Source: a virus
Reading direction: 5' to 3' (one strand)
Length of the DNA stretch: 64,000 bases
IMG/VR virus record: IMGVR_UViG_3300045988_135716
Span: 64,001-128,000 of that record
Positions 3,593 through 23,480 of the stretch are shown one piece after another. Made by a program: the position numbers and the translations under genes. The stretch's first letter is position 1; the number at the start of each line of letters is the position of its first letter. The notes beneath the pieces were generated by a model. The model saw nothing but the letters and a program-made list of their open reading frames with translations, was not told where the DNA came from and did not search any database.

Positions 3593-4311
3593 TTACAAAC
3601 GGCAAGCAATATATCCGTTTAGATTCAAATGGTAGTCCTCAAACATGCGGTCAGGTACTTGCAGAAAGATTTTCAGAAGATAAAGCAAAAAACATTATCA
3701 AGAATCTTCCTAAACCATTGAGAAAATTTCACTTTAATGTTCAGCTAGTCTCTGAAATCGCTGCTCAACCTAAATCAATTGAAGAAGAAAAACTACCAGA
3801 AGATATTAACGGTATCTTAGCGGAACTTGACGATTACTATGAAGATTATCAGCGAAATTCAAAGTATGATAATCCTTATACATATCATGGAGAAACTGCT
3901 TTAGAGAAAGAACTTTCTATGAATGATATAGGAATCGGCAATTTCTTTAAGATGGTAATTGATTGTGTTTCTGATAGAGAGAAATACATTGAGAATATGG
4001 AATATCTTATTAAAGAATATGATCTGAAAATTCTTGACGTAAGACATTTTATCCGAGATGAAGAAACAAAATTGGGAACAGTGCCAATGAGTAGAATCAG
4101 TTACTTATTACAATATTATGAACGTCAACGTGCTATATGCAAGAGAAATAGAAATTGTGCAAAACTTTTCCAATATCATGTAGAGAGATTTAAAAACAGG
4201 AAATACATGAAAGTGATTGATAGGATTACAAATTCTAAATATAAATACAGACGTTTATCTAAAGAATATCTCGAAGATTATGCAAAAGGTATAACGAAAG
4301 AGAGAAAATAA
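3580..4311 (+). CDS. hypothetical protein
   Basis: 243-codon ORF with TTG start 9 nt after AAAGGGG; no recognisable motif. Confidence 0.6.
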   Translation: MDCLITNGKQYIRLDSNGSPQTCGQVLAERFSEDKAKNIIKNLPKPLRKFHFNVQLVSEIAAQPKSIEEEKLPEDINGILAELDDYYEDYQRNSKYDNPYTYHGETALEKELSMNDIGIGNFFKMVIDCVSDREKYIENMEYLIKEYDLKILDVRHFIRDEETKLGTVPMSRISYLLQYYERQRAICKRNRNCAKLFQYHVERFKNRKYMKVIDRITNSKYKYRRLSKEYLEDYAKGITKERK

Positions 4312-4345
4312 TTATTACATAGTTACATATCAACAGAGAGGATCG

Positions 4346-6610
4346 GTGATACGAATGCACTACAAAGACATTCTGGAATCTTATTACAAAGTTAATGAGA
4401 ACAATCCAGAAAACTCAGCAAAGAAATTACATAATGTTGTAGATAAAATTCTAAAACAGTTTGGTGGTATCACCGATATTGACAGGGATGAATGTTATTC
4501 TATAGCAAATTTAGAGATTACAAAATATATCAAAAGTCAATTAGATAAAGGAATTGAAGATTTTGATGAAGATAAATTCAATGGATTTATATATTTTGCA
4601 ATTTCCAGAAAAGTTAAGATGCATATTACAAGAAAAAACAGACAAAAGCGTTGTAAAATCGTAACAAAGATAGAAGATGGAAAGGAAATTAAGGAATATA
4701 TTTATCCAACATCATTAGATAATCTCATGTCTGACGATGGAAAAACAAAGATGATTGATATAATTCCTTCTGATTTTGATATAGAAAGCAGTATTGATGC
4801 AGGAGAACTATTAAATCTTGGAGAAAATGTAGTCAAATATATTGCTTCTCTTGGGTGTATAGAGCGCAAAATTGCAGATTTAATAATGCAAGGATGTAAT
4901 TCTACGGAGATCAAAAGCATATTAAAGCTTTCGGACAAAGAATATAATACATATCTTTCGGATATGAAAGAATATGAAAAAAGAAAACTTCTAAAGATGG
5001 AAGAATGTGAAAATGCAAATATTGAGGAGGAATTACCAATGGAAACAAAAACAACAACATCAGAAAGAACAAAATCTACCAGTTATTCAATAGAATCTCT
5101 TAGCAAACAGTTGAGACAGCACAGATTAAGAGACAACCATCCATTACAAAGAACTTCTGGACAATGGAGTCTACTTACAAAAAGCGAATTAATTTCTGAT
5201 ATTTTACAAGGTAATTCACTTTTACAGATTGTAATTTCAGAAGAAATTAAAGCCGGAATTATAATGCATTGGTTAATTGATGGAAAGCAGCGTTCTACAA
5301 ATTTAAAAGATTATCTTGAAGATGGATTTGCAATTTCCAAAAATGTACAGAGATATATGATTGAATATCAGAGCGACAAAACAGATGAAGATGGGAATGT
5401 AATTTTAAATGAAGATGGGTTTCCAATGCCAGAAAGTAAAGTATTTGATATTCGTGGAAAAAAATTTTCTCAATTGCCAGAAGAATTACAAGACAAATTT
5501 AAAGATTATCAAGTTCCTGTAATGCTCAATTTGAATTGTACAAAGAAAGATATTGCTTATGATATTGCACGATTCAACAGATGTAGACCAATGAATGTTT
5601 CTCAGTCAGGATGGCTAGGATTAGAAGAATCCTATGCTGAATATGTAGATAAGATTTTAAAGATGGATTTCTTTAAGGTTGATTGTGATAAGTCAAGTTA
5701 TTCAAATACGAATATTAAGAACGGATCACTTAGAAGAATTATTATTGAAGCAATAATGACATCTAAATATCTTAGTCATTTTGATAAAGACTTTGGTAAA
5801 ATGTGTGCTTACTTAACTGAAAATGCAAATGAATCAGTATTTATTGATTTTTATTTGACATTGGAGAAGTTATCTAATGTGTTAAGAGGTAATACATCAG
5901 ATATTTTTAATAACAAAAATTCATTTTTATGGTTTGCTTTATTTGATAAATTTTTAGAATATAACATTGAAGATGATAAATTTAATGGATTTATTCAGGA
6001 ATTTAAAGAGACATTACATAATAAAGAAATTGATGGTATTACATACGATTGCTTAAACGGTCAGAAAGGGACAAAGGATCGTTCTTCCGTAACAAAAAGA
6101 TTCAATCATTTGCTTACTCTGATGAAAGAATACTTACATATCGAAGATTCTGTTGAGGAAATCACAGAAGAACCAGAAACCATTGAAAATGATTTGTTTG
6201 ATACAGAAACAATTGAAGAATCATCTGAGAAACCTGCTATCGCAGAAGTAACAGAGTATTCAGCAATTGGAAATGTGGAAATTGAACACGTTGAAGGAGA
6301 AGTAGTAGATAACGATACATTAGATTTTGTGAAAGAATGTGTTGATAAGAACGTAACAGACATTGATGTTTCTTATTATGAAGACGACTTAAATACCATT
6401 ACAAAAGATGTACAGTCTAAGTTACTTGATGATGTAAACAGAAAATCTTTAATTGCAGTTATCGCATATGCGTATATGCAGGATGAAAATTACGAAGAAT
6501 GGTTTGAGAATTATTTTAAAAGAGTTGATACATATGATATTGATCAAAAAAAGAACTATCTCAATATGAGAAACGATTTGATTACTTTTAATAAAGGAGC
6601 AGTTGCATAA
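4346..6610 (+). CDS. Large fusion protein: sigma-70 region-4-like HTH N-terminal part, central DUF262/ParB-like nuclease domain, acidic C-terminal part
   Basis: IERKIADLIMQGCNSTEIKSILKLSDKEY resembles a sigma region 4 / LuxR-type HTH. PLQRTSGQWS...WLIDGKQRSTNL matches the DUF262 DGQQR motif. The start could instead be ATG 4355. Confidence 0.65.
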   Translation: MIRMHYKDILESYYKVNENNPENSAKKLHNVVDKILKQFGGITDIDRDECYSIANLEITKYIKSQLDKGIEDFDEDKFNGFIYFAISRKVKMHITRKNRQKRCKIVTKIEDGKEIKEYIYPTSLDNLMSDDGKTKMIDIIPSDFDIESSIDAGELLNLGENVVKYIASLGCIERKIADLIMQGCNSTEIKSILKLSDKEYNTYLSDMKEYEKRKLLKMEECENANIEEELPMETKTTTSERTKSTSYSIESLSKQLRQHRLRDNHPLQRTSGQWSLLTKSELISDILQGNSLLQIVISEEIKAGIIMHWLIDGKQRSTNLKDYLEDGFAISKNVQRYMIEYQSDKTDEDGNVILNEDGFPMPESKVFDIRGKKFSQLPEELQDKFKDYQVPVMLNLNCTKKDIAYDIARFNRCRPMNVSQSGWLGLEESYAEYVDKILKMDFFKVDCDKSSYSNTNIKNGSLRRIIIEAIMTSKYLSHFDKDFGKMCAYLTENANESVFIDFYLTLEKLSNVLRGNTSDIFNNKNSFLWFALFDKFLEYNIEDDKFNGFIQEFKETLHNKEIDGITYDCLNGQKGTKDRSSVTKRFNHLLTLMKEYLHIEDSVEEITEEPETIENDLFDTETIEESSEKPAIAEVTEYSAIGNVEIEHVEGEVVDNDTLDFVKECVDKNVTDIDVSYYEDDLNTITKDVQSKLLDDVNRKSLIAVIAYAYMQDENYEEWFENYFKRVDTYDIDQKKNYLNMRNDLITFNKGAVA

Positions 6611-7056
6611 TGAAAGATACAGTAAATGAAGTAAAGAAAAACTTATCAGAACTCGATTATCTTCTTGGAGAAAATAATGTTGAAGATATTAAGAAACGTA
6701 TTGGAGATTTGATTGTGGACAGAATAGCATCAGATTTACGTGCATATGACTATTATCTGTTTTATCCAGAAGATTATACCGAAACAATCAATAGTGCATT
6801 TGAGAAAATAGAGAAGAAAATAACAAAAATGTATTCCGATGCGTTATTGGAAACGGCAACAGAATCAGTTACACGATTTAAAGATATTGCATTATCACAT
6901 ATAAACGAAACACAGGGGCTACAATTGAGGTCGTGTCATAAATGTGAACATTGTAATTTTAATAGATGTAAATTCTATGAAGATTACTATTGGAAAGCAC
7001 ATGACGGAATTTGTGCAGAAGAAGGATTTATCAATTTTAAAGAGAAAGTAGATTAA
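6610..7056 (+). CDS. hypothetical protein with C-terminal Cys/His cluster
   Basis: TAATG overlap with the upstream gene; AAAGGAG SD; CHKCEHCNFNRCKF cluster. Confidence 0.65.
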   Translation: MKDTVNEVKKNLSELDYLLGENNVEDIKKRIGDLIVDRIASDLRAYDYYLFYPEDYTETINSAFEKIEKKITKMYSDALLETATESVTRFKDIALSHINETQGLQLRSCHKCEHCNFNRCKFYEDYYWKAHDGICAEEGFINFKEKVD

Positions 7057-7071
7057 TAAGGGAGATTACAT

Positions 7072-7659
7072 ATGAACATGAGACTTTCAGAAATTAAAAT
7101 TTCTGCGGATTTTGAAAGCAGTATTCCAAATACATATAAATATAATAAATGTGAAAATTACTATAACAAAACAGGAAATCAGGATAGGTACATAGTAGTA
7201 GATGAGAAGAATGTTTTAGTAGATGGTTATATAATGTATTTAGTATTGAAAAATCATGATGTGGAATATGGTAATGTAAAACGTTTGACATTAAGAAAAC
7301 ATACTTATACTGATAAGCAACGTAAAAAGTATGGACGATTGATTTCACCTAAACACGTTGTTACATACAAGGAAAAACCAACTGCTTATGTATACGGAAA
7401 ACATCCTAATAGTAAAGACAATAAAGAATACGTTTGGAGATTACCGCAAGCATGGGGATATATGAGTCTTATGTTACAAAAAGGTGATGTAATCTATTGT
7501 GGTACAAGATTTGGAGTTGCACCTGTTGTTGTAACTAAAGTGGAATTAAAATCTAATTTTGATACCAGTTTATGTATTAAAAAAGTATGCTCACAGAAGA
7601 TTTATAGGAATGGAGAATTATTAAAATATGATAGTAAGGATGGATCAACTAATGTGTAA
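7072..7659 (+). CDS. hypothetical protein (weak ParB N-terminal-like resemblance)
   Basis: GGGAG SD. The segment YIVVDEKNVLVDGYIMYLVLKNH is reminiscent of the ParB/Srx fold 'DGyhR' region, but the motif is incomplete. Confidence 0.6.
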   Translation: MNMRLSEIKISADFESSIPNTYKYNKCENYYNKTGNQDRYIVVDEKNVLVDGYIMYLVLKNHDVEYGNVKRLTLRKHTYTDKQRKKYGRLISPKHVVTYKEKPTAYVYGKHPNSKDNKEYVWRLPQAWGYMSLMLQKGDVIYCGTRFGVAPVVVTKVELKSNFDTSLCIKKVCSQKIYRNGELLKYDSKDGSTNV

Positions 7660-7819
7660 TCATAACTGGGTATTAATCGAAAAGCCACGACATTTAAAGT
7701 ATAATTATAGTGGGTTAGAAGTTGTGATTGGTAAATGTCGATGCACGAAATGTAAGAAGATAAAGGATAGAAAGATGATTGGTCACCAGATTGGAAATAT
7801 ATTTGAGGAGACAGGATAA
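7652..7819 (+). CDS. small zinc-ribbon-like protein
   Basis: CNHNW...CRCTKCKK Cys pairs. The ORF opens at 7628, but ATG 7652 follows an AAGGATGGA SD. Confidence 0.5.
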   Translation: MCNHNWVLIEKPRHLKYNYSGLEVVIGKCRCTKCKKIKDRKMIGHQIGNIFEETG

Positions 7820-7838
7820 AAGCGTGGTTTCATTGCCA

Positions 7839-8010
7839 GTTTTTAGAAGAGCTTAAATTTATAGAGTTCTAAAACTAATGAGGTACATTGGTTAAGTGTA
7901 GTGCACACGTTTTAGAAGAGTGTAAATTTATAGGGTTCTAAAGCTCCTTGCCCGTCATGCCGATAGCACAGCCAGTTTTAGAAGAGTGTAAATTTATAAG
8001 GTTCTAAAGC
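7839..8010 (+). CRISPR. Mini-CRISPR array: 3 repeats (36-37 nt) and 2 spacers (33 and 30 nt)
   Basis: R1 is 7839-7875 GTTTTTAGAAGAGCTTAAATTTATAGAGTTCTAAAAC. R2 is 7909-7944 GTTTTAGAAGAGTGTAAATTTATAGGGTTCTAAAGC. R3 is 7975-8010 GTTTTAGAAGAGTGTAAATTTATAAGGTTCTAAAGC. Unique spacers lie at 7876-7908 and 7945-7974. Repeat termini are type II-like (GTTTTAGA...CTAAAAC). Confidence 0.8.
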
Positions 8011-8288
8011 CTCAAATTTACAAGAACCTTATAAATTATGAAATGTACGTATGTACATACGTTGTCAACTAAAAATAGAATAAGTGATACATAAGTTGAA
8101 CTACATTATTATAAGAGAATATGTTATTGTGTCGCTCTAGCAATAATTATATCGTGAAAAGCTAAACATCCATTACATAATTCTGTAAAACACTCTTAAT
8201 GGAAGTGCTTGAACATCAAAGACTTATAATAATATTTTCGAAGAGCATTACCAGTTTTATACTGAGATTATATTTAAGGACAAAGAAA
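8011..8288 (+). ncRNA. Putative tracrRNA / omega-RNA-like scaffold fused to the last CRISPR repeat
   Basis: Anti-repeat AGAACCTTATAAATT (8023-8037) is the exact reverse complement of repeat bases 7991-8005. A 16-nt perfect palindrome ACGTATGTACATACGT lies at 8047-8062. The 278-nt non-coding stretch runs up to the IscB-like start, as omega-RNAs do. Boundaries are not determined. Confidence 0.5.
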
Positions 8289-9842
8289 ATGAATTACTTA
8301 GATTTTGCATTTGTAATAGATAAAAATAATAATCCTTGTATGCCTATTTATGAAGGATATGCAGGTAAATTATTGAGAAGTAAAAAAGCAGTTATTGTAA
8401 ATCATGATCCATTAGTTGTACAAAGACACGATGAATATAATGCAGATTTAGAGTTTAGAGATAGAATTACATTAAAAGTAGATACTGGATATGAAAATAT
8501 AGGATTTTCAGTCAGTGATAGTAAACATGAATATTTATCAGGTCAAGTTAAATTGCTTAATGGAATATCTAAGAGGTTATTGGCTAGAAAAGAACATAGA
8601 GGTTGTCGTAGACAAAGATTAAGATATAGAAAAAACAAAGCCATAGACTATAAAACAGTTAATAATCCAACATATAAAAATGGGAATCAAGATGGTTGGT
8701 TAGCACCTTCAATTTTACATAGAATTAATTCGCATTTGAGATTAGTTGATAAAATTGCTTCTTGGATTCCAATTGATAAAGTGATTATTGAAACTGCGAA
8801 CTTTGATATACAGAAAATAAAAGCTATATTAAACGACAAAGAAATTGAAGGAGTCGAATATCAGTTAGGAGAAATGTATGGATTTGAAAATGTTAAACAG
8901 TATGTAAGAGAACGAGACAATTATACTTGTCAAATATGCGAAGCTGGACAAGATAAAGATAAGAAAAATGTTCCTATAGAAGTACATCATATTATTCCAC
9001 GTTCAAAAGGAGGTTCTAATAAGCCAGATAATTTAATTTCGTTATGTAAAACCTGTCATAAAAAAGTTCATATGAATAATAATGACAATGATTTATTTAG
9101 AAAATTGCAACATGATGGAGTGAAAAATACATACAAAGATGCTTCATTTATGAACATCATGAGATGGACGCTATATAATCAGTTAAAAGAAAAATATGAC
9201 GTATCTATATCATATGGTTATATAACAAAATTAAATAGACGAATGGCAAATCTGAAAAAGTACCATTATATTGATGCGTTGTGCATTTCAGATTATCATG
9301 AAATTACACTTACTAAAAATATTTATTTAGTTGAACAAAAACGATGTAATGATAGATGTATGGAATCGTTTTTTGATGCCAAATATATTGATAGTAGAGA
9401 TAATAAAATAAAGGAAGGAACTGAATTATGTAAAGTCAGAAAATCATATGCATCGAGAAGATCTACAAGAAAAGAAGATATTGAAAACAATCGTATTTTT
9501 AGAAAAGAAAAAGTTGAAAAAGGAAGAAGACAATATAGATGTCATTCATATTGTTTAAAAGCAGGAGATTTAGTATATATAAATTATGGAAAACATAAAG
9601 GCAAAATAGCAGAATTTTCAACAATGAAAAAAACTCCAACTGGTTCATATCAAATAAAATTTATTTATGATGGACAAGAATGTAAATGTCCATCAATATC
9701 TATCAAACCAGAAGAGTATATTCAATTAACAACAAATCAATGTGACAAAGTAAAAATTGTACGTACTCGTAGAGGTATGATTTGGCGAAAAACTGATAGA
9801 TTAGAATATGAGTCAAACACACCTGAACAGTATAGACCTTAA
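8289..9842 (+). CDS. iscB: IscB-like RNA-guided nuclease (PLMP, split RuvC, Arg-rich bridge helix, HNH); compact Cas9-like effector
   Basis: Motifs occur in IscB/Cas9 order: NNPCMPI (PLMP), KVDTGYENIGFSV (RuvC-I), RGCRRQRLRYRKNK (RRXRR bridge helix), VIIETANFD (RuvC-II), CQIC..HHIIPRSKGGSNKPDNLISLCKTCHKKVH (HNH), HYIDALC (RuvC-III). ATG 8289 has an AGGA SD 8 nt upstream. The in-frame extension back to 8199 is probably non-coding. Confidence 0.8.
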   Translation: MNYLDFAFVIDKNNNPCMPIYEGYAGKLLRSKKAVIVNHDPLVVQRHDEYNADLEFRDRITLKVDTGYENIGFSVSDSKHEYLSGQVKLLNGISKRLLARKEHRGCRRQRLRYRKNKAIDYKTVNNPTYKNGNQDGWLAPSILHRINSHLRLVDKIASWIPIDKVIIETANFDIQKIKAILNDKEIEGVEYQLGEMYGFENVKQYVRERDNYTCQICEAGQDKDKKNVPIEVHHIIPRSKGGSNKPDNLISLCKTCHKKVHMNNNDNDLFRKLQHDGVKNTYKDASFMNIMRWTLYNQLKEKYDVSISYGYITKLNRRMANLKKYHYIDALCISDYHEITLTKNIYLVEQKRCNDRCMESFFDAKYIDSRDNKIKEGTELCKVRKSYASRRSTRKEDIENNRIFRKEKVEKGRRQYRCHSYCLKAGDLVYINYGKHKGKIAEFSTMKKTPTGSYQIKFIYDGQECKCPSISIKPEEYIQLTTNQCDKVKIVRTRRGMIWRKTDRLEYESNTPEQYRP

Positions 9843-9919
9843 TACATATCATATCTAAAACATTCTTATAAAAGATCCCAATTTTATCATAATTGAATAT
9901 ATAGAAAGAGGTGATAACC

Positions 9920-10066
9920 ATGATCCTAGTAATGCGAATAATCCTTGTACCATTATGTATCGCAAATGCGATTGTTCAGAAACGAAACACACAAAAAGTC
10001 CTCTGGTCTTGCATGGCATTATGTTGGCTTGGATTGTGTGTAGATGAAATTATGAAAATTTGGTAA
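9920..10066 (+). CDS. small hydrophobic protein (48 aa)
   Basis: AGAGGTGA SD; MILVMRIILVPLCIANAIV... membrane-like sequence; below the ORF-track size cut-off. Confidence 0.5.
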   Translation: MILVMRIILVPLCIANAIVQKRNTQKVLWSCMALCWLGLCVDEIMKIW

Positions 10067-10080
10067 AGAAAAGGAGAAAA

Positions 10081-10482
10081 ATGAGAGACAGAAGTGAATT
10101 TGGAAGAATGTATGGAATTATTTTCACCAATGATGATTATGTTGGTATGAAAAAGCTTGATGAAATTTTAAGAGAAAAGTTGGCACAAGGAATTAAGTGT
10201 GTAAGACATGACCGACTTGGATATTATTGTAATTACATTATGAAATTTTCGGATGATGATGTATGGAGAATTATTTCACCACATGACAAATCTGTGAGGT
10301 GCTTAAAATGGAATTTAGCATATATAGACGCTTATAATACTACTTTGGATGATTACATGAATATTATTATTCCTTCTGGTGATACAACAATGGTTGAAGA
10401 ACCAAAATATTTTAATTGGGATAATGAATATTTTAAAGATTTAGTTATTGGCAAACGGCAAGAATTTAAGTGGATAGAATAA
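10081..10482 (+). CDS. hypothetical protein
   Basis: The ORF opens at 10060 (TTG), but ATG 10081 follows an AAAAGGAG SD. Confidence 0.65.
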   Translation: MRDRSEFGRMYGIIFTNDDYVGMKKLDEILREKLAQGIKCVRHDRLGYYCNYIMKFSDDDVWRIISPHDKSVRCLKWNLAYIDAYNTTLDDYMNIIIPSGDTTMVEEPKYFNWDNEYFKDLVIGKRQEFKWIE

Positions 10483-10516
10483 TACGATGAAATGTGAGTT
10501 TTAGGAGTAATTAAGA

Positions 10517-10612
10517 ATGATAGAATTGATTTATAATATTATGTTAATTATGATACCTGTAATATATTTAACAAATGTTATTTACAATTGGGTTTTTAAG
10601 GAGAAGAAATGA
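10517..10612 (+). CDS. small hydrophobic peptide (31 aa)
   Basis: TAGGAG SD; MIELIYNIMLIMIPVIYLTNVIYNWVFKEKK; ATGA overlap with the next gene. Confidence 0.4.
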   Translation: MIELIYNIMLIMIPVIYLTNVIYNWVFKEKK

Positions 10613-10851
10613 AAGAGAGTCAGTGTGATAAATTATTTAACAGATTTGTAGATAGTTATAACAGTTCTAACTGGCATCCAAATGACATTAGAAGATTTCA
10701 TGAATATGTAGAATACTGTTATATGAATAATATAGATTGTTATGCTATGATTGAAAAAATTAAAAGATGCACATTTACAAAAGAAACAAAAGATATACTT
10801 ATAAGAAATGCATTAGACGTATATGAGTATTTACGAATAAAAGATATTTAA
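10609..10851 (+). CDS. hypothetical protein
   Basis: AAGGAG SD; 80-codon ORF. Confidence 0.65.
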   Translation: MKESQCDKLFNRFVDSYNSSNWHPNDIRRFHEYVEYCYMNNIDCYAMIEKIKRCTFTKETKDILIRNALDVYEYLRIKDI

Positions 10852-10954
10852 AACTTAGATGAATGACTTGTTTTATTAAAACTTGAGTTTCAAAGAAAGG
10901 AAGTGAGATACAATAAGTAAAGAATTTGAAAATGAATTTTATAAATTAGATTAT

Positions 10955-11212
10955 ATGCATAATTATATTTTGAATACTATGAATCACATACCAAGATATG
11001 TCTATGGTAAACCAAAACAATCAAAACGACTCATTAAAGAATATATGCTGAAAAATGAATATGATGAATATTTTACAGAAGAAATTAATAATGATTTTTG
11101 TGAAGGTTTTGGATGCGCAGTTGATTTAATATTTAATGAATTTTTAGATGATATTCATGAAAAATATGATCTATTAAAAAAAGGAAGATATGGAGAGAAT
11201 TATAATGGATAA
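10955..11212 (+). CDS. hypothetical protein (possible upstream ATA start at 10913)
   Basis: ATG 10955 has no SD. In-frame ATA 10913 lies 6 nt after AAGGAAGTGA. Confidence 0.6.
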   Translation: MHNYILNTMNHIPRYVYGKPKQSKRLIKEYMLKNEYDEYFTEEINNDFCEGFGCAVDLIFNEFLDDIHEKYDLLKKGRYGENYNG

Positions 11213-11615
11213 GGAGAAAGAAAAATTATCTAAAGAGATATTTCTTATTTGTAAGGGAAGATACAATTACGAAAAGTATGGTTCAGTGTTTGATGCAATG
11301 AATAAATATTATCATAAACATTATTGTGATGATATTGACATTACATATAAACTTGCCAATCAGATATTTTTATTTCCTATGGTTGAATGGATATTGGAGA
11401 ATCATAGAGATAATAAGTTGCATTCGTTTTTGTATCACATATTTAATAATAACTTATTTTGGAACGGAGAATGTAATTACGATGAGAACTTATTTAAAAA
11501 GATTTTGAGTTGGGTTGTTATAATAAATGTAAAACATTATAACGAAGAAACGGATGAATACGAATGGGTTATTGATTTATCTGATTTTGACGGAAAGGAT
11601 GTTGATTTAGAATGA
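11205..11615 (+). CDS. hypothetical protein
   Basis: The ORF opens at 11190; ATG 11205 follows a GGAGAG SD. Confidence 0.65.
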   Translation: MDKEKEKLSKEIFLICKGRYNYEKYGSVFDAMNKYYHKHYCDDIDITYKLANQIFLFPMVEWILENHRDNKLHSFLYHIFNNNLFWNGECNYDENLFKKILSWVVIINVKHYNEETDEYEWVIDLSDFDGKDVDLE

Positions 11616-11641
11616 TTAATAGTATCAAATAAGGAGAAAAT

Positions 11642-11791
11642 ATAGGTGTAGCAACACAGGTACAAGGTGCAGTTGTAGATGTATATCAACATCCAAAATT
11701 TAAAGGCATGTATGGATTTGTATATAGAGGTGAGAAGTGGACTTGTAGTGATTATGCTTTTGATAAGGAGTACAAGAGTGAAATGGATTAA
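11642..11791 (+). CDS. possible small protein with an ATA start
   Basis: 49-codon open frame (..VDVYQHPKFKGMYGFVYRGEKWTCSDYAFDKEY..) beginning 5 nt after AAGGAG. No ATG/GTG/TTG is available at the 5' end. Confidence 0.3.
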   Translation: MGVATQVQGAVVDVYQHPKFKGMYGFVYRGEKWTCSDYAFDKEYKSEMD

Positions 11792-11948
11792 GAGAAAAAT
11801 AATTATGTGGTTATTTGGATATGATTTTCCTCGATATGTGAGACAGTTCTATAAGGAACAGGATCAAGTGAGAAAATTGTACTCTGATATGCTACATGAA
11901 GAAGAAAGATTGTTAAGATGGATAAAGCTAGCAGAAGAAAAGAGGTGA
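11778..11948 (+). CDS. hypothetical protein
   Basis: GTG 11778 lies 7 nt after AAGGAG (11765-11770). The track ORF opens at 11679 without an SD. Confidence 0.5.
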   Translation: MKWIKRKIIMWLFGYDFPRYVRQFYKEQDQVRKLYSDMLHEEERLLRWIKLAEEKR

Positions 11949-11954
11949 GAATAA

Positions 11955-12560
11955 TTGAGTTACATAGGGAGTAGGGTTAAGTATATAGGCAATGTTTATG
12001 GTATGTCTTGTAAAGAAGGTATAATTATTGAAGAAAATACAGGCACTGTACAGGTTGAATTTGACAATGGGGTAATTCTTGATTTATGTAAAAAATATAT
12101 TGTAATAAACGAAAGTGAGGATAATAACATGGCAAAATTAGAAGGATATTATGCAGTAGCAGTAACAGAAGAAGGAATTGGGTATAATAAAAGAAATTAT
12201 TATTATGCGATTTTTGATGATGGTAACATATATAAAGTCGGAGATCAGGTTATAGTAAGTGGTTCAAATAATGACGTTTTGGAAATTAAAGATATTATCA
12301 CATTAGAAGAAGCAAAAGAAAAAGGAAGAAAAGATATTACTGCGGAAGTTATTTGTAAGGTTGATACATTAGCGTATGATAAACGTGTGGAAGAACGTAA
12401 AGAGAAAGTTGAACGTAAGAAAGAAGCTGATAAAATTAAGAAACAGATGGATAAAATGATTGCAGAAATGGATCAGACAAAGCGTTATGAGATGTATGCA
12501 AGTGATAATCCTGAGCTAGCAGAGAAATTAAAAGCATATAAGGAGCTGATTGGAGAGTAA
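11955..12560 (+). CDS. hypothetical protein with Lys/Glu-rich coiled-coil-like C-terminus
   Basis: TTG start after a GAGGTGAG SD; 201 codons. Confidence 0.65.
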   Translation: MSYIGSRVKYIGNVYGMSCKEGIIIEENTGTVQVEFDNGVILDLCKKYIVINESEDNNMAKLEGYYAVAVTEEGIGYNKRNYYYAIFDDGNIYKVGDQVIVSGSNNDVLEIKDIITLEEAKEKGRKDITAEVICKVDTLAYDKRVEERKEKVERKKEADKIKKQMDKMIAEMDQTKRYEMYASDNPELAEKLKAYKELIGE

Positions 12561-12561
12561 T

Positions 12562-12813
12562 ATGGAAGTCATGATAGCGATTTTAATTATAACATCTATT
12601 ATGTTGAGTATATTTTTTGTGTACAATGCTGTTGAAAGTGATGATTTGCCACATGAAACATACTTAATTATTTACAAAGATAAAAATTTGTTTGGGATAA
12701 TTACCACTACTTTATATTTGATTTTTTCAATTCCTGCACAGATAATTATATATTTATCTTATGTAATCATGGAGTTTATTGATTTGATTTATCGTTTAGG
12801 AGTAAAAAAGTAA
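12562..12813 (+). CDS. small membrane protein
   Basis: Two hydrophobic segments; the ORF opens at 12550 and ATG 12562 follows GGAGAG. Confidence 0.6.
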   Translation: MEVMIAILIITSIMLSIFFVYNAVESDDLPHETYLIIYKDKNLFGIITTTLYLIFSIPAQIIIYLSYVIMEFIDLIYRLGVKK

Positions 12814-13073
12814 TGAACAAAGAAAAGATACATAAATTTCGTAGGAAGTTAGGTTGGGTTGTTTTTCTTGGTGGGATGGTGGCAAACGTGATAATTTCAT
12901 GGGGATTTTTATTCATGAAACCCGTCTTTCATCTGTTATTTTCCATTGCAGCAGGGGTATTTTCAGTTAAATTATTGGGAATTTCACTATTAAAATGCTT
13001 TTTAGCTCCTATTGTATGGTATACATTATTATGGATTATAGAAGTAATTTTAGAATATTTGGGAGATTATTGA
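12813..13073 (+). CDS. small membrane protein
   Basis: TAATG overlap with the upstream gene; three hydrophobic segments. Confidence 0.65.
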   Translation: MNKEKIHKFRRKLGWVVFLGGMVANVIISWGFLFMKPVFHLLFSIAAGVFSVKLLGISLLKCFLAPIVWYTLLWIIEVILEYLGDY

Positions 13074-13184
13074 TAAATAAAGAGAAAGAATTAAAAGAAC
13101 ATATTGAAAAACGTATTCAGAATTATGTTTGGAAAGCTTTGACAGGAAAGAAATTAACTATTGAAGATTTAGGAGGATATAGCG

Positions 13185-13514
13185 GTGGCGGTTTTAAGAA
13201 CAGAAGATGGTAAAGAGTTGATTTTAACTTGTAGATGTGGATGTGATGATGGAATCCACTTTAAGATTGATAAGGATTTTGAAGATTATATGTATATGAC
13301 ATATACGAATGGTAATTTTTACCGTGATCAGGACAATGGATTCTTTAGAACATTAGGAAGAAAGTTACGAAAAGTTTTTGCAATCTTATTCAATCAAGAT
13401 TACTATTATGCAGAAGCAGTATTCTCTAAAGAAGATTTTGAAGAGTTTAGAGAATATATTAATAGTTTTGCAGTACATAAAGAAAACTCCACTGACGTTG
13501 TGGACAATCAGTAG
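13185..13514 (+). CDS. hypothetical protein
   Basis: GTG start 7 nt after an AGGAGGA SD. Confidence 0.65.
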   Translation: MAVLRTEDGKELILTCRCGCDDGIHFKIDKDFEDYMYMTYTNGNFYRDQDNGFFRTLGRKLRKVFAILFNQDYYYAEAVFSKEDFEEFREYINSFAVHKENSTDVVDNQ

Positions 13515-13643
13515 AGTTATTGGAATAGATCAAGACCAGTGATCTATGTAGAAAATCATATCATGTTTCTATGACTTGTTCAAGTCGATATTTCCAAGAT
13601 AATAATTAAAAATCAATATTAAATATATAGGAAGGATTATTTT

Positions 13644-13817
13644 ATGAACTCAGCATTTAGACAAATTTTAGAAAACCAGATGACAATTATGGAAGAATTA
13701 GGAGATATTAAATTTTGTGTATTAGGATTATTAAAAGGACATATCCCTGATGAATATAACAAGGCATTACTTGAAAGAATTGGGAGTACTGAAAAATTAT
13801 TAAAACAGAGAATATAG
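13644..13817 (+). CDS. small hypothetical protein (57 aa)
   Basis: AGGAAGGA SD; this plus-strand ORF is preferred over the overlapping minus-strand track ORF 13637-13825. Confidence 0.5.
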   Translation: MNSAFRQILENQMTIMEELGDIKFCVLGLLKGHIPDEYNKALLERIGSTEKLLKQRI

Positions 13818-13854
13818 TGATACATTGAATCTTGCTTTCAGGAGGTGCGATAAA

Positions 13855-14040
13855 GTGACAACAGTTGAATTTAGAAATGAATTAATAGACAGGTTGAATA
13901 ATAATGCAAGTCGTTATCACGGTGGAATTTGTAACGGAAAATATTTTCCAGAAGTAGAAACATTTGATGTTGATGAAGTTTATGAGATTATCGACAGAAT
14001 TTACTTCAATCAACCAGAAGATAATAACGAAAGTGAGTGA
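13855..14040 (+). CDS. hypothetical protein
   Basis: GTG 13855 follows a CAGGAGGTG SD; the track ORF opens at 13825. Confidence 0.6.
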   Translation: MTTVEFRNELIDRLNNNASRYHGGICNGKYFPEVETFDVDEVYEIIDRIYFNQPEDNNESE

Positions 14041-17000: not shown

Positions 17001-17984
17001 TTGAGTCATTTAGTTGAAAATAATAATTCATCTGAGAATGGATTAAGAGTATTAAGTCTATTCGATGGTATATCTTGTGGCAGAATTGCATTGGATAGAG
17101 CTGGATTTAAGGTTAAAGATTATTACGCTTATGAGATTGAACAGAATGCAATCAAGATAAGCAGATATAATTATCCGTCCATTTATCAATGTGGTGATGT
17201 TTTTGATGAAGATTTTAGTAAATATGATGGTATTGATTTGTTAATTGGTGGCAGTCCCTGTACTGAATTTTCAGTAGCAAAGTGTTCTAAAACTGCAAAA
17301 CATAAAAGAGAAGTCGTGCCTGGTGGAGATGGTTGGAAATTGTTTATGCAATATGTAAGAGCGTTACATGAATCGAAACCAAAATATTTTCTATATGAGA
17401 ACAATTATGGCATTGCAGATTCTATACGTGATGCTATCACAAAAGAACTTGGTGTTGAACATGTGCTTTTAGACAGCCAATTAGTTTCAGCTCAAAGACG
17501 TAAGAGATTATATTGGACGAATATTCCAATAAAAGGAGAACCAGAAGATAGAGGAATTTTAGTAAAGGATGTGATTGTAAATGATTCTGAACTAATTAAG
17601 CAGTTTGATGATCGTATTAGAAACACATTAGTCAAATGTGAGAATTACATAAAATATGATTTAAGTGGCAAAGGACATTTTTCTCAGCAAGATAGGATGT
17701 ATTTTCTTAATAATAAAGCACCAACAGTTCCAAGATGTAGAACTGAAACTAAATTTAATGTTTGGTTAGGTGGAGAAACATATAAGAAAACTTGTCCTGT
17801 TGAGATAGAAAGACTTCAAACATTACCAGATGGATATACGGAGTTTGGGTTGAATGAAGATGGAAGCATTGTGAAAATGCCGAAAACAAGAAGATTTGAA
17901 GCTATTGGTAACGGTTGGACTGTTGACATTATAGCTTGGATATTTAGTTTTATGAAGGAGAAACAAGATGCAAATAACAGCTAA
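17001..17984 (+). CDS. DNA (cytosine-5)-methyltransferase
   Basis: Motif I LSLFDGISCG, motif IV GGSPCTEFS, motif VI-like LYENN, QRRKR, motif X IGNGWTV. The TTG start is poorly spaced from the SD, so the start is uncertain. Confidence 0.85.
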   Translation: MSHLVENNNSSENGLRVLSLFDGISCGRIALDRAGFKVKDYYAYEIEQNAIKISRYNYPSIYQCGDVFDEDFSKYDGIDLLIGGSPCTEFSVAKCSKTAKHKREVVPGGDGWKLFMQYVRALHESKPKYFLYENNYGIADSIRDAITKELGVEHVLLDSQLVSAQRRKRLYWTNIPIKGEPEDRGILVKDVIVNDSELIKQFDDRIRNTLVKCENYIKYDLSGKGHFSQQDRMYFLNNKAPTVPRCRTETKFNVWLGGETYKKTCPVEIERLQTLPDGYTEFGLNEDGSIVKMPKTRRFEAIGNGWTVDIIAWIFSFMKEKQDANNS

Positions 17985-18834
17985 AAGCTATTTTAGTGGA
18001 GCAGGAGGAATGGATTTAGGAATAGAGGAATCTGGAATTAACATAATTGAATCGTATGAGATAGATAAAAAGTGTTGCGACACTTTGAGAAAGAATTTCA
18101 AACATCATGTAAATGAGTCAGATATTACACAGATTACAGTTCTCGATCAGAATGATGCGGATGTTTATATTGGTACATTTCCATGTACACGATATTCAAC
18201 CATTGCTGATATTTCAGGTATAAGAACAGGTGATGATTTATTTTTACATTTCTTTAGGCATATTGCTTTAGCACAACCAGAAATGTATGTAGTAGAAAAC
18301 GTTCCTGGAATGCTTAAATTCAAAGTAGTTATGGAAGCATTGACAAAATTACCTGATTATTACGTGAGAGTTGAATGTCCTATTAACGCAAATATGTGGT
18401 TGCCACAAGAAAGAAAACGATTGATTCTAATTGGAAGTAAGAAACCATTTACCAATTTTGATTATCCTGATTCTCAACCATTAAAACTGAAAGATATTAT
18501 CGAAAATGATGCTTCGATTGATATTCCACAATATGTATATAATCGCATTAATGGAAAATATAGAGATAAACCAATTGTTTCAGATCCAGATAATGATGAT
18601 CTTGCTCCAACATGTGTAGCGCATTACGCAAAAGATAAAGGAACAAGATTAATCAAAGATGGAAAGAGAATTAGACCATATACAGTAAGGGAATATGCTA
18701 GACTGCAAGGTTTTCCAGATTGGTTTGAGTTCTGTGGAACAGATAATGATGCTTATAGACAGATTGGTAATGCTGTTGCTGTTCCAATGGGACGTTGGAT
18801 TGGCAAACAGATTGTAAAATATTTTAATTCATAA
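17968..18834 (+). CDS. DNA (cytosine-5)-methyltransferase (second copy, divergent)
   Basis: Motif I YFSGAGGMDLG, motif IV GTFPCTRYS, motif VI VVENVPG, QERKR, motif X IGNAVAVPM; AAGGAG SD. Confidence 0.85.
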   Translation: MQITAKSYFSGAGGMDLGIEESGINIIESYEIDKKCCDTLRKNFKHHVNESDITQITVLDQNDADVYIGTFPCTRYSTIADISGIRTGDDLFLHFFRHIALAQPEMYVVENVPGMLKFKVVMEALTKLPDYYVRVECPINANMWLPQERKRLILIGSKKPFTNFDYPDSQPLKLKDIIENDASIDIPQYVYNRINGKYRDKPIVSDPDNDDLAPTCVAHYAKDKGTRLIKDGKRIRPYTVREYARLQGFPDWFEFCGTDNDAYRQIGNAVAVPMGRWIGKQIVKYFNS

Positions 18835-22116: not shown

Positions 22117-23480
22117 ATGAACTACGAAGATTTTCTAAAACAAAAGGATTATGTTCTGGAAAGTAGTGGATTTAATATTGATAAAGATAAATTAAATCCC
22201 ATGCTATTTGACTTTCAGAAAGACGTAGTAAGATGGGCATTAGCAAAAGGTAGAGCTTGTATTTTTGCAGAGTGTGGGCTTGGTAAAACGCCAATGCAAT
22301 TATCATGGGCGCATCAAGTACATCTACATACGGGCGGTAAAGTTTTAATTCTTGCACCTCTATCGGTTGCGGATCAGACAAAGAGAGAATCTGAAAAATT
22401 CCATTACAATGCAAAAGTATGTGAGAAACAGGAAGATTGTATTGATGGAATCAACATTACAAACTATGAGAAATTAGACAAATTCGTAGCAAATGAATTT
22501 GTTGGAGTAGTCTTAGACGAGAGTTCAATTCTTAAATCCTACACTGGTAAAGTGAGGACTTCTATTATCGAGAATTTCCAAAATGTTCCCTATAAATTAG
22601 CTTGTACTGCGAACCTGCCCCAAATGATTATATGGAGTTGGGAAATCATTCGGAATTTTGTGGAGTTATGACACGTTCAGAGATGTTATCAATGTTCTTT
22701 GTTCATGATGGTGGTCAAACATCTAAGTGGAGATTAAAAGGTCATGCAAAAGATGTATTTTGGCAATGGATGGCAAGTTGGTCTGTATTTATTGATAATC
22801 CATCAAATTTAGGATATGACGGTACAGATTATGAATTACCTAATTTGAATATTCATGAAATTATAGTTGATGGAGATGAACCAATCACTGAATCACTCAC
22901 ATTAACAGAGCGTAGAAATGCAAGAAAAGATACTCTTGAATTAAGATGTCAAAAAGCAGCAGATTTAGTAAATAATTCAGATGAACAATGGTTAGTCTGG
23001 TGTGATCTTAATGCAGAAGGCGATAGATTGAATGAACTGATTGAAGAAAGTAAAAACGTTCAAGGAAGTGATAAGAATAAATACAAGAGTGAAACAATGC
23101 TATCATTTTCTGATGAAAAATTAAAATGTCTTATCAGCAAGCCACAGCTCGCAGGATATGGCATGAATTGGCAGAATTGCCACAATGTTATTTTTACTGG
23201 ACTTTCTGATAGTTTTGAGCAATATTATCAGGCTGTAAGAAGATGTTGGCGTTTTGGTCAGACAAAAGAAGTCAATGTATACATAATCATTTCAGCAAAA
23301 GAAGGTTGTGTAAAAGAGAATATTGAAAGAAAGCAATTAGATTTCATTACTATGAGAGATGCAATGATTAATCTGACTAAAGAAATTACTAAGAAAGAGC
23401 TTAAATCAACGTGTAGGCTTACTACACCATATGAAGCAAATACAACAATGAAATTACCAAATTGGGAGGAATTCAAATAA
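22117..23480 (+). CDS. SNF2/DEAD-like superfamily 2 helicase, reading frame broken by an apparent -1 frameshift near 22612-22616
   Basis: Motif I ECGLGKTPMQ, motif II VVLDESS, motif III region LACTA|N|PAPNDYMELGN split between track ORFs 22117-22671 and 22602-23480. C-terminal motifs GYGMNWQ and AVRRCWRFGQ are present. Confidence 0.75.

What the first reader, a model, noticed from the sequence alone, without database searches (positions are those of the whole stretch)
7839..9842. Phage-borne IscB-like (Cas9-ancestor) nuclease directly downstream of a type II-like mini-CRISPR array
Three 36-37 nt direct repeats (R2 GTTTTAGAAGAGTGTAAATTTATAGGGTTCTAAAGC, R3 with one substitution, R1 more diverged) are separated by unique 33- and 30-nt spacers. 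They sit about 280 nt upstream, on the same strand, of a 517-aa ORF. That ORF carries, in order, a PLMP-like N-terminus (NNPCMPI), RuvC-I (KVDTGYENIGFSV), an Arg-rich bridge helix (RGCRRQRLRYRKNK), RuvC-II (VIIETANFD), HNH (CQIC..HHIIPRSKGGSNKPDNLISLCKTCHKKVH) and RuvC-III (HYIDALC). This is the IscB/Cas9 core architecture without a REC lobe. The repeats begin GTTTTAGA and end CTAAA(A/G)C, as type II repeats do. No cas1, cas2 or cas4 lies anywhere in the 64 kb. IscB is normally guided by a single omega-RNA inside IS200/605 elements. A multi-spacer array next to an IscB-sized effector inside a phage genome is therefore unusual and sits on the proposed IscB-to-Cas9 path. A phage could use it against competing mobile elements or host defence loci.
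Basis: partly seen in the sequence, partly recalled or inferred. Interest (0 to 1): 0.95.

Follow-up and report, generated by a model that had tools for sequence, protein, structure and literature searches.

The report
Phage IscB nuclease with mini-CRISPR array
A large gut phage carries a compact RNA-guided DNA cutter (IscB, the ancestral type of Cas9) next to a three-repeat CRISPR-like array with at least one spacer matching other phages; this kind of system is already known, but this phage-specific branch hints at how such arrays gain new spacers.

Summary
Three 36-nt repeats (7840-8010) with 33- and 30-nt spacers lie 278 nt upstream, on the same strand, of an intact 517-aa IscB (8289-9842). 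The IscB passes NCBIfam guided_IscB (E 3.5e-88), and its predicted fold best matches OgeuIscB.

The DNA between them encodes a structured RNA. An anti-repeat (8023-8037) pairs 15/15 with the last repeat. The rest is a diverged HEARO/omega-RNA scaffold with strong covariation (23 compensated pairs). The window is phage DNA and holds no Cas1, Cas2, Cas4 or TnpA.

All 17 relatives examined with upstream sequence (45-72% identity, large viral contigs) have the same layout, with 1-7 repeats of 66-nt period. Near-identical phages carry different spacers.

Spacer 2 matches a motif found in Bacteroides phage BU2-1 and 69 viral contigs. A Lachnospiraceae CRISPR array targets the same site. Spacers of sister phages hit a gene of a sibling phage.

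This is a phage-borne clade of the known CRISPR-associated IscB class, most likely used against competing phages. The new lead is a type II-A leader-end motif (ATTTGAG, opposite strand) next to the IscB-proximal repeat. It suggests a host adaptation machinery adds spacers there.

The parts
7834..7839 (+). Left edge of the cassette (TGCCAG). Homology to the IscB-less relative MT835469.1 ends at 7833.
7840..7875 (+). Repeat R1, distal from IscB and degenerate (5 mismatches; starts TTTTT instead of GTTTT).
7876..7908 (+). Spacer 1 (33 nt). No match found anywhere.
7909..7944 (+). Repeat R2 (reference copy).
7945..7974 (+). Spacer 2 (30 nt, 60% GC in a 30% GC genome). Its core matches a 23-nt motif in Bacteroides phage BU2-1 (25/25), in 69 IMG/VR contigs (best 28/30), and a spacer of a Lachnospiraceae CRISPR array (27/30).
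7975..8010 (+). Repeat R3, proximal to IscB. Nucleotides 17-31 pair with the anti-repeat, and nucleotides 2-7 pair with CTAAAA at 8069-8074.
8011..8017 (-). CTCAAAT, which reads ATTTGAG on the minus strand and abuts the repeat. It is identical to the type II-A group-1 leader-end motif. It is conserved across the clade although unpaired in the RNA.
8023..8037 (+). Anti-repeat AGAACCTTATAAATT. It is 15/15 complementary to R3, 14/15 to R2 and 13/15 to R1. It is the only such site in the window outside the repeats.
8038..8288 (+). Guide-RNA scaffold derived from HEARO/omega-RNA. Covarying helices lie at 8105-8115/8223-8233, 8119-8130/8140-8152, 8154-8174/8198-8214 and 8252-8255/8261-8264. A lineage-specific hairpin lies at 8047-8062. 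The ribosome-binding site AAGGA is at 8276-8280.
8289..9842 (+). iscB, 517 aa. PLMP-type N-terminus; RuvC-I D65; Arg-rich bridge helix about residues 93-124; RuvC-II E168; HNH residues 214-261; RuvC-III H326/D329; C-terminal beta-rich domain residues 340-517, presumed to read the target-adjacent motif (TAM).
9911..10066 (+). A 51-aa hydrophobic ORF that travels with iscB in the closest relative (L016). The right edge of the cassette lies at about 10072.

Best explanation
The segment from 7834 to about 10072 is a CRISPR-associated IscB cassette carried by a large AT-rich gut phage. Shown: an intact IscB nuclease; a 3-repeat array; and a conserved structured RNA scaffold of omega-RNA descent whose 5' anti-repeat pairs with the last repeat. 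Inferred: the array and scaffold are transcribed together towards iscB. The last repeat folds back on the anti-repeat. The 5' end of that repeat pairs with CUAAAA further downstream. Spacer 2 is thereby presented as the guide of a natural single-guide RNA. IscB loaded with this RNA opens matching double-stranded DNA next to an unknown target-adjacent motif (TAM) and cuts both strands with its RuvC and HNH sites. The upstream spacer could act only after pairing with the anti-repeat in trans, or it may be an ageing remnant. Spacer 2 and two spacers of sister phages match other phages. The system most likely destroys or out-competes phages that co-infect the same cell. Spacers turn over although no adaptation genes are nearby. 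The most likely source is a host type II-A Cas1-Cas2 machinery acting on the ATTTGAG/repeat junction at the IscB-proximal end. This last step is the weakest.
For: IscB identity: NCBIfam guided_IscB 295.7 bits against a cut-off of 175; Pfam RRXRR and HNH; sequence hits to solved IscBs; AlphaFold model with pLDDT 78 whose best fold matches are OgeuIscB complexes at E 4e-25; catalytic residues conserved. Guide RNA: repeat/anti-repeat 15/15. Of 57 pairs, 97% are paired against 35-46% in slid controls, 23 pairs carry changes on both sides, and 0 of 500 shuffles reach this. The scaffold aligns block by block with HEARO RNAs of canonical IscB loci. Conservation of the system: 14 IMG/VR loci, the metagenome loci L089/L090, L094 and L095, and the more distant L096-L100 all carry 1-7 repeats of 66-nt period ending 231-285 nt before the ORF. 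Spacer turnover: L002 and L003 are 95% identical in their flanks but share no spacer, and L094 has a single repeat at the same site. Targets: spacer 2 matches phage BU2-1 and 69 viral contigs, and a bacterial CRISPR array targets the same site. L009 and L005 spacers match a gene of sibling phage L006 at 27/30 and 25/30; the mismatches are synonymous (L009) or fall at 3-nt intervals (L005). The window spacers do not match the window itself. The same architecture was shown to be an active RNA-guided nuclease in DelIscB (PMC12660989).
Against: No expression, processing or cleavage data exist for this locus. No perfect protospacer was found. The best match to spacer 2 is 28/30, and most instances mismatch the two guide positions next to the repeat, where mismatches should hurt most. 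Spacer 1 and 25 of the 27 sister-phage spacers have no match. The TAM is unknown. The window RNA alone folds only slightly better than shuffles (z = -1.65), and Rfam HEARO does not detect it. The promoter scan is uninformative. No matching host repeat was found in GTDB representative genomes. The host of this phage is not known.
Confidence: 0.75

Rival explanations
1. Selfish homing rather than defence. The guides direct cuts in sibling phages at or near the allelic locus. Recombinational repair then copies the cassette and its flanks into the rival, as with free-standing homing endonucleases of T-even phages.
For: Two sister-phage spacers hit a gene that lies immediately upstream of the array in sibling phage L006, inside an insertion that the spacer-bearing phages lack. 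The cassette sits in a variable slot: the IscB-less relative holds an ADP-ribosylglycohydrolase gene there, and L016 has both. The concept is laid out in PMC13565253.
Against: Spacer 2 of the window targets a motif in unrelated, much smaller phages and a microvirus, which cannot serve as homing recipients. This reading is not exclusive of inter-phage warfare.
Confidence: 0.15
2. The guides are aimed at the host, either at its chromosome or at defence loci, to take over or disarm the cell.
For: Phage CRISPR spacers against host genes are reported for huge phages (PMC7162821). Spacer 1 has no identified target. The spacer-2 motif also occurs in bacterial genome contigs, probably in prophages.
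Against: Every match found lies in phage or prophage-like contexts, or inside a host CRISPR spacer. None lies in a housekeeping or defence gene.
Confidence: 0.07
3. A decaying transposon relic. The 'array' is a tandem duplication of the 5' end of an IS200/605 omega-RNA with no adaptive role. IscB acts only with the last guide, or not at all.
For: The nearest array-less relatives examined are HEARO-bearing IscBs, one of them (L101) next to a TnpA. R1 is degenerate. The sequence before R1 is simply phage flank.
Against: The strict geometry of 36-nt repeats plus 30-nt spacers holds across four repeat families. Spacers differ between near-identical phages and match foreign phages. The ORF and scaffold are under clear purifying and compensatory selection. 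No TnpA was found among the ORFs scanned around the cassette.
Confidence: 0.05
4. A miniature bona fide type II CRISPR-Cas9 system.
For: Type II-like repeat termini, 36/30 geometry, an anti-repeat, and an ATTTGAG motif.
Against: The effector scores as IscB. It has the PLMP N-terminus and no REC lobe. Cas9 structures match far worse (E 1e-10 or weaker, TM at most 0.35). No cas1, cas2 or csn2 is present. The scaffold is fused to the array and is of omega-RNA descent.
Confidence: 0.02

Closest known systems
CRISPR-associated IscB ('CasIscB'; Altae-Tran et al. 2021; DelIscB, PMC12660989)
   Same: An IscB-sized effector. An array upstream on the same strand. An anti-repeat and scaffold in the non-coding RNA between array and ORF. 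No adaptation genes are described.
   Different: This effector is 517 aa against 457 aa. It is found in large gut phages, whereas DelIscB comes from an aquatic metagenome. The ATTTGAG junction motif and the phage-derived spacers are not reported for DelIscB in the text I could read.
Canonical IS200/605 IscB with HEARO/omega-RNA (OgeuIscB; Clostridioides locus L101)
   Same: Same protein family and fold, at about 40% identity to Clostridial IscBs. The 3' two-thirds of the guide RNA is homologous.
   Different: The canonical element has a single guide taken from the transposon flank, a TnpA partner in L101, and an Rfam HEARO hit of 134-141 bits. Here there are several spacers, no TnpA, no HEARO hit, and the first omega-RNA hairpin is replaced by a repeat/anti-repeat duplex.
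Type II-A CRISPR-Cas9
   Same: 36-nt repeats that start GTTTTAG and end CTAAAAC, 30-nt spacers, repeat/anti-repeat pairing, a degenerate terminal repeat, and an ATTTGAG/G(T/C)TT junction motif (PMC5382924).
   Different: No Cas9, Cas1, Cas2 or Csn2. The leader-end motif sits at the 3' end of the array relative to transcription, so the polarity is inverted. The tracr-like part is fused in cis.
Phage-encoded CRISPR systems without adaptation modules (huge phages, Cas-phi; PMC7162821)
   Same: Compact arrays, no Cas1/2/4, spacers against other phages that bacterial CRISPR also targets.
   Different: The effector here is an IscB rather than Cas12j, Cas9 or a class 1 complex. The phages are about 100-200 kb.
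TranC (intermediates between TnpB and Cas12)
   Same: A transposon-type RNA-guided nuclease that has acquired a CRISPR array. One TranC was found in a phage.
   Different: TranC belongs to the TnpB/Cas12 lineage, not the IscB/Cas9 lineage.

Membership tests
IscB (OMEGA RNA-guided endonuclease) | Profile match over the PLMP, RuvC, bridge-helix and HNH core above the curated cut-off | tested here: met
   NF040563 guided_IscB E 3.5e-88, 295.7 bits against 175, residues 8-333. PF14239 RRXRR E 2.7e-37 and PF01844 HNH.
IscB (OMEGA RNA-guided endonuclease) | IscB fold without a REC lobe, plus a C-terminal TAM-interacting domain | tested here: met
   Best Foldseek hits are 8csz_D, 9liq_A and 7xht_A (E 4e-25 to 7e-19, TM 0.48-0.57). 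Cas9s reach TM 0.35 at most. Only about 50 residues separate the bridge helix from RuvC-II.
IscB (OMEGA RNA-guided endonuclease) | Intact RuvC (D, E, H/D) and HNH catalytic residues | tested here: met
   D65, E168, H326, D329, H233/H234, N248 and H257 are invariant or nearly so in 50 sequences.
IscB (OMEGA RNA-guided endonuclease) | HEARO/omega-RNA encoded directly upstream | tested here: inconclusive
   No Rfam RF02033 hit at E up to 10, whereas relatives L101 and L102 score 134-141 bits. The scaffold nevertheless aligns with them through invariant blocks and has its own covariation support.
IscB (OMEGA RNA-guided endonuclease) | Residence in an IS200/605 element with TnpA (typical, but not universal) | tested here: not met
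   No Y1_Tnp among the ORFs scanned around the cassette. The outgroup L101 has one.
CRISPR-associated IscB | Repeat-spacer array on the same strand upstream of iscB, followed by an anti-repeat within the upstream non-coding RNA | tested here: met
   Layout as described for DelIscB.
CRISPR-associated IscB | Association conserved among relatives, with spacers that vary | tested here: met
   All 14 IMG/VR loci, the metagenome loci L089/L090, L094 and L095, and L096-L100 have arrays. Related phages carry different spacers.
CRISPR-associated IscB | Guide-dependent DNA cleavage | not testable with these tools
   Needs biochemistry.
Type II CRISPR-Cas | Cas9 effector with a REC lobe | tested here: not met
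Type II CRISPR-Cas | Adaptation module (cas1, cas2, with or without csn2/cas4) at the locus | tested here: not met
   PADLOC on 90 ORFs and Pfam on selected ORFs. Only 64 kb of the genome was available.
Type II CRISPR-Cas | Type II-A array geometry and the leader-end motif ATTTGAG/GTTT | tested here: met
   36-nt repeats with about 30-nt spacers. The motif abuts the IscB-proximal repeat on the minus strand, against PMC5382924. Its orientation relative to transcription is inverted.
Phage-encoded CRISPR loci lacking adaptation genes | Located in a phage genome, compact array, spacers against other phages | tested here: met
   against PMC7162821.

The most novel reading that the evidence does not exclude
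These phage IscB arrays are built to be extended by a host type II-A Cas1-Cas2 machinery, with inverted polarity. The canonical leader-end motif ATTTGAG sits on the opposite strand, next to the IscB-proximal repeat, in the loop between repeat and anti-repeat. Each new spacer would be inserted there. Because transcription runs towards that end, the newest spacer is automatically the one fused in cis to the omega-RNA scaffold. It would work as a ready-made single-guide RNA with no processing. Older spacers drift upstream and decay, which would explain the short arrays and degenerate distal repeats. Such a locus would be a living example of how a transposon nuclease and its omega-RNA became coupled to CRISPR adaptation, and of a phage parasitising host adaptation.
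Probability: 0.35. Interest if true: 0.8.

Novelty: new member of a known kind. Interest (0 to 1): 0.55.

Why it matters
CRISPR-associated IscBs are the natural intermediates between single-guide transposon nucleases and CRISPR-Cas9, yet few have been examined and their biology is largely unknown. This clade supplies a coherent set: at least 41 protein clusters in the database, of which every locus examined (17 clusters) lies in a viral contig or phage-like gene context. In these loci the array size runs from one repeat (no spacer) to seven, spacers turn over between near-identical genomes, and several spacers have identifiable phage targets. It therefore gives a concrete system for two questions. 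How does an omega-RNA hairpin become a repeat/anti-repeat pair? How do arrays without Cas1-Cas2 acquire spacers? The ATTTGAG junction motif yields a directly testable answer to the second. The 517-aa enzyme with a natural single-guide layout is also a candidate compact editor.

Tried and rejected
- **Rfam** on 7600-8400 at E up to 10 gave no HEARO hit or any credible family.
- **Single-sequence folding** of the guide region gave only z = -1.65. I relied on comparative analysis instead.
- **The promoter/terminator scan** found 25 sites against 17.9 expected and no terminator, so it was uninformative.
- **Repeat searches** found nothing for family A in IMG/VR, nothing for families A/B in GTDB genomes, and nothing meaningful in GenBank phages or PLSDB plasmids. 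No host array with this repeat was found.
- **Spacer 1** has no match in GenBank phages, IMG/VR, the window or the fetched loci.
- **The 27 sister-phage spacers** have no match in GenBank phages.
- **The first PADLOC run** on all 112 ORFs was swamped by methyltransferase models. I repeated it on the 90 other ORFs.
- **Extra IMG/VR scans** with family B and C repeats returned only contigs already held, so the polarity test could not be enlarged.
- **Ten places requested for one IscB protein** returned five, and four of the contigs break inside the last repeat.
- **Literature**: Altae-Tran 2021 and the DelIscB supplement are not held. Identity to published CRISPR-associated IscBs could not be measured.
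- **Rejected readings**: Cas9 or type II proper; a generic intergenic repeat; a transposon with TnpA.
Full report
**Observation**

- Three direct repeats of 36 nt lie at 7840-7875, 7909-7944 and 7975-8010. They are 86%, 100% and 97% identical to the middle copy.
- The spacers between them are unique: 33 nt and 30 nt.
- The repeat occurs nowhere else in the 64 kb at up to three mismatches. None is expected by chance.
- The ORF downstream starts at the ATG at 8289, eight nucleotides after an AAGGA ribosome-binding site. It ends at 9842, giving 517 aa, and begins 278 nt after the last repeat.

**The protein**

It is an IscB.
- NCBIfam's equivalog model guided_IscB matches residues 8-333 at E 3.5e-88 (295.7 bits; cut-off 175).
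- Pfam finds RRXRR (E 2.7e-37) and HNH.
- The closest solved proteins by sequence are IscBs: TbaIscB, OgeuIscB and HfmIscB.
- An AlphaFold2 model built on 50 homologues has pLDDT 78 and pTM 0.67.
- Its best structural matches are OgeuIscB-omega-RNA-DNA complexes (8csz_D, E 4e-25; TM 0.5-0.57). IsrB, type II-D Cas9s and larger Cas9s follow at much lower coverage.
- The catalytic residues of RuvC (D65, E168, H326, D329) and HNH (H233/H234, N248, H257) are invariant or nearly so in the family alignment.
- About 50 residues separate the bridge helix from RuvC-II, so there is no REC lobe.

**The RNA**

Thirteen bases after R3 lies AGAACCTTATAAATT (8023-8037). It is perfectly complementary to 15 nt of R3, 14/15 to R2 and 13/15 to R1. 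It is the only such site in the window outside the repeats.

I aligned the stretch from the last repeat to the start codon in eleven distinct loci.
- RNAalifold predicts 51 pairs, 22 of them with compensatory changes.
- I added a 6-bp helix between repeat nucleotides 2-7 (UUUUAG) and CUAAAA (8069-8074). It covaries A-U to G-C in the family whose repeat begins GUUUUGG.
- With that helix, 97% of cells are paired, against 35-46% when the partners are slid.
- 23 pairs carry changes on both sides, and 0 of 500 shuffles reach the observed values.

Rfam's HEARO model does not detect the window. It does score 134-141 bits on the upstream regions of ordinary IscB genes about 40% identical to this one. 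The window scaffold aligns with those HEARO RNAs through a series of invariant blocks: ATAG..T.AG, CTAC, CTCTAG, TAAACAT, AAGTG and AGAG.

The scaffold is therefore a diverged omega-RNA. Its first hairpin has been replaced by a repeat/anti-repeat duplex.

**Context**

- The window is phage DNA. It encodes a phage-type DNA polymerase, a RecJ-like exonuclease, a DnaB-like helicase, several methyltransferases and a PurZ-like enzyme.
- Across 4000-14000 it aligns in patches, 88% identical on average, with a 176-kb phage from human faeces (MT835469.1).
- That relative lacks the cassette. Homology stops at 7833, six bases before R1, and resumes at 10479. Its slot holds an ADP-ribosylglycohydrolase gene.
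- In the contig that carries a 93%-identical IscB, the nuclease and a 51-aa hydrophobic ORF precede that same gene. This places the right edge of the cassette near 10072.
- No TnpA was found among the ORFs scanned around the cassette.
- PADLOC on 90 ORFs detects only NsnA, PD-T4-2_A, mREase_IV and DpdF. Pfam on the large ORFs shows no Cas1.

**Relatives**

A database search finds 41 protein clusters of the same length at 45-93% identity. Below that, identity drops to ordinary IscBs of about 450 aa at about 40%.
- Fourteen IMG/VR loci (contigs up to 206 kb), metagenome contigs, and three more distant members at 45-53% identity were examined.
- Every one with upstream sequence has 1-7 repeats of 36 nt with spacers of about 30 nt. 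The arrays end 231-285 nt before the ORF.
- Four or more repeat families exist, and the anti-repeat covaries with them.
- Several of these phages share other genes with the window.
- None of 50,697 GenBank phage records holds a member of the clade. The best hit is 38.6% identical.

**Spacer dynamics**

- Phages with 95% identical flanks carry entirely different spacers: L002 has six and L003 has three. A metagenome contig with the same flank has a single repeat and no spacer.
- The distal repeat is degenerate in nearly every lineage.
- In one family the distal spacer is shared while the proximal spacers differ.

**Targets**

Spacer 2 is 60% GC in a 30% GC genome.
- It matches Bacteroides phage BU2-1 over 25/25 nt (E 1e-3), a faecal phage contig and a microvirus.
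- Its 21-nt core is present in 69 IMG/VR contigs, with a best overall match of 28/30.
- It is also present in 17 bacterial genome contigs from both Bacteroidota and Bacillota.
- In one of these, a Lachnospiraceae MAG, the sequence is a spacer inside a bacterial CRISPR array of at least 16 repeats. That spacer overlaps the window spacer at 27/30.
- Two spacers of sister phages match a 68-aa gene that sits just upstream of the array in sibling phage L006. The gene lies within an insertion the spacer-bearing phages lack.
- One spacer's mismatches are all synonymous, and the other's fall at 3-nt intervals. This marks them as taken from a homologous gene.
- Spacer 1 and the other sister-phage spacers have no match.
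- The window spacers do not match the window itself.

**Mechanism**

Shown:
- an intact IscB;
- an array;
- a conserved guide scaffold fused to the last repeat;
- spacer turnover;
- phage-derived spacers.

Inferred from the characterised homologous layout of DelIscB and from IscB structures:
- The transcript runs through the array into the scaffold.
- The last repeat pairs with the anti-repeat.
- The adjacent spacer serves as the guide.
- IscB cuts matching DNA next to an unknown TAM.

Whether upstream spacers are used is open, as it is for DelIscB. The likely benefit is exclusion of competing phages. A homing-like drive among siblings is a non-exclusive alternative.

**A new lead**

Immediately after the proximal repeat, 13 of the 15 array loci tabulated have CTCAAA; L098 and L100 have CTCAAT and CTCAAA, and L007/L008 and L096 deviate. 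This stretch is unpaired in the RNA and absent from canonical HEARO RNAs.
- On the opposite strand it reads (A)TTTGAG followed by G(T/C)TTTAGA.
- That is the leader-end/repeat junction conserved in 87 of 167 type II-A loci. Together with the first repeat, it is sufficient for adaptation (PMC5382924).
- The repeat termini are inverted copies of each other, the geometry is 36 + 30 nt, and the distal repeat is degenerate.
- This suggests that a host type II-A Cas1-Cas2 machinery inserts spacers at the IscB-proximal end. The newest spacer would then always be the one fused to the scaffold.

This is inference only. No host array with these repeats was found. PAM selection by a host Cas9 would not guarantee an IscB TAM.

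**Comparison with what is known**

- CRISPR-associated IscBs were reported in 2021 and named CasIscBs.
- DelIscB has the same layout and is an active nuclease.
- More than 16% of IscB/HEARO loci are viral or prophage-derived.
- Phage CRISPR loci without Cas1/2/4 whose spacers hit other phages are documented.

The finding is therefore a new, phage-specific member of a known class, not a new class. I did not find this clade, its spacer targets or the ATTTGAG junction motif described in the papers I could search. The key 2021 paper was not available to me.

**Verdict**

The novelty was overstated. Interest is moderate (0.55). It would rise to about 0.8 if the adaptation-hijack model proves correct (probability about 0.35).

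Noticed in passing
window 7948-7972 (reverse complement); loci L017-L088 and L104-L120: The 23-nt motif GCTGTGCTATCGGCATGACGGGC is conserved exactly in dozens of otherwise unrelated phages, prophages and a microvirus, from hosts in both Bacteroidota and Bacillota. Where a downstream ORF of at least 40 aa is found, it mostly lies 4-17 nt before the start codon, and the ORFs are many different small ones. It has no Rfam match and its function is unknown.
   Followed up: partly
L116:3505-4532: A Lachnospiraceae MAG has a CRISPR array of at least 16 repeats (GTCACTCCCTGTGCGGGAGTGTGGATTGAAAT). One 35-nt spacer covers the same site as window spacer 2 (27/30). This hints that the targeted phages, and perhaps this phage, infect Lachnospiraceae.
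   Followed up: partly
window 29327-30427: A PurZ-like adenylosuccinate synthetase (phrog_1211 E 5.6e-62; Pfam Adenylsucc_synt). This could mean the phage replaces adenine with 2-aminoadenine in its DNA, which might also shield it from nucleases.
   Followed up: no
L094:3607-5143: A relative of the family-B phages carries, about 1 kb from its IscB, a TnpB/Cas12f-like gene (439 aa). It is followed by two 36-nt repeats with a 31-nt spacer, a second RNA-guided nuclease with its own mini-array.
   Followed up: partly
L006:2178-3604: Sibling phage L006 has an insertion just upstream of its array: a 68-aa ORF (unannotated; HTH-like only by eye) plus a SIR2-family gene (Pfam E 2.9e-56). Spacers in phages L005 and L009, which lack the insertion, target the 68-aa gene.
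   Followed up: partly
window 9911-10066: A 51-aa hydrophobic ORF immediately after iscB. It is 92% conserved in the closest relative (L016) and absent from the other clade members.
   Followed up: partly
window 17001-18834 and 23462-24388: Three DNA methyltransferase genes: one PHROG-annotated DNA methyltransferase (class not determined), one C5 and one N6/N4. They suggest heavy self-modification of the phage DNA.
   Followed up: no
window 8108-8135 (minus strand): The best promoter-like site in the region on the minus strand (GCGACA-16-TATAAT, 10/12) would transcribe the array in the canonical type II-A direction. The number of such sites is not above chance.
   Followed up: no
L132-L135: Four independent assemblies that carry an identical IscB all break inside the last repeat. 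Arrays of this clade will therefore be under-represented in short-read assemblies.
   Followed up: yes
window 31357-32247 and 33034-33891: A radical-SAM gene and a Thg1-like (tRNA-His guanylyltransferase family) gene. Homologues occur next to IscB in relatives L006 and L096.
   Followed up: no
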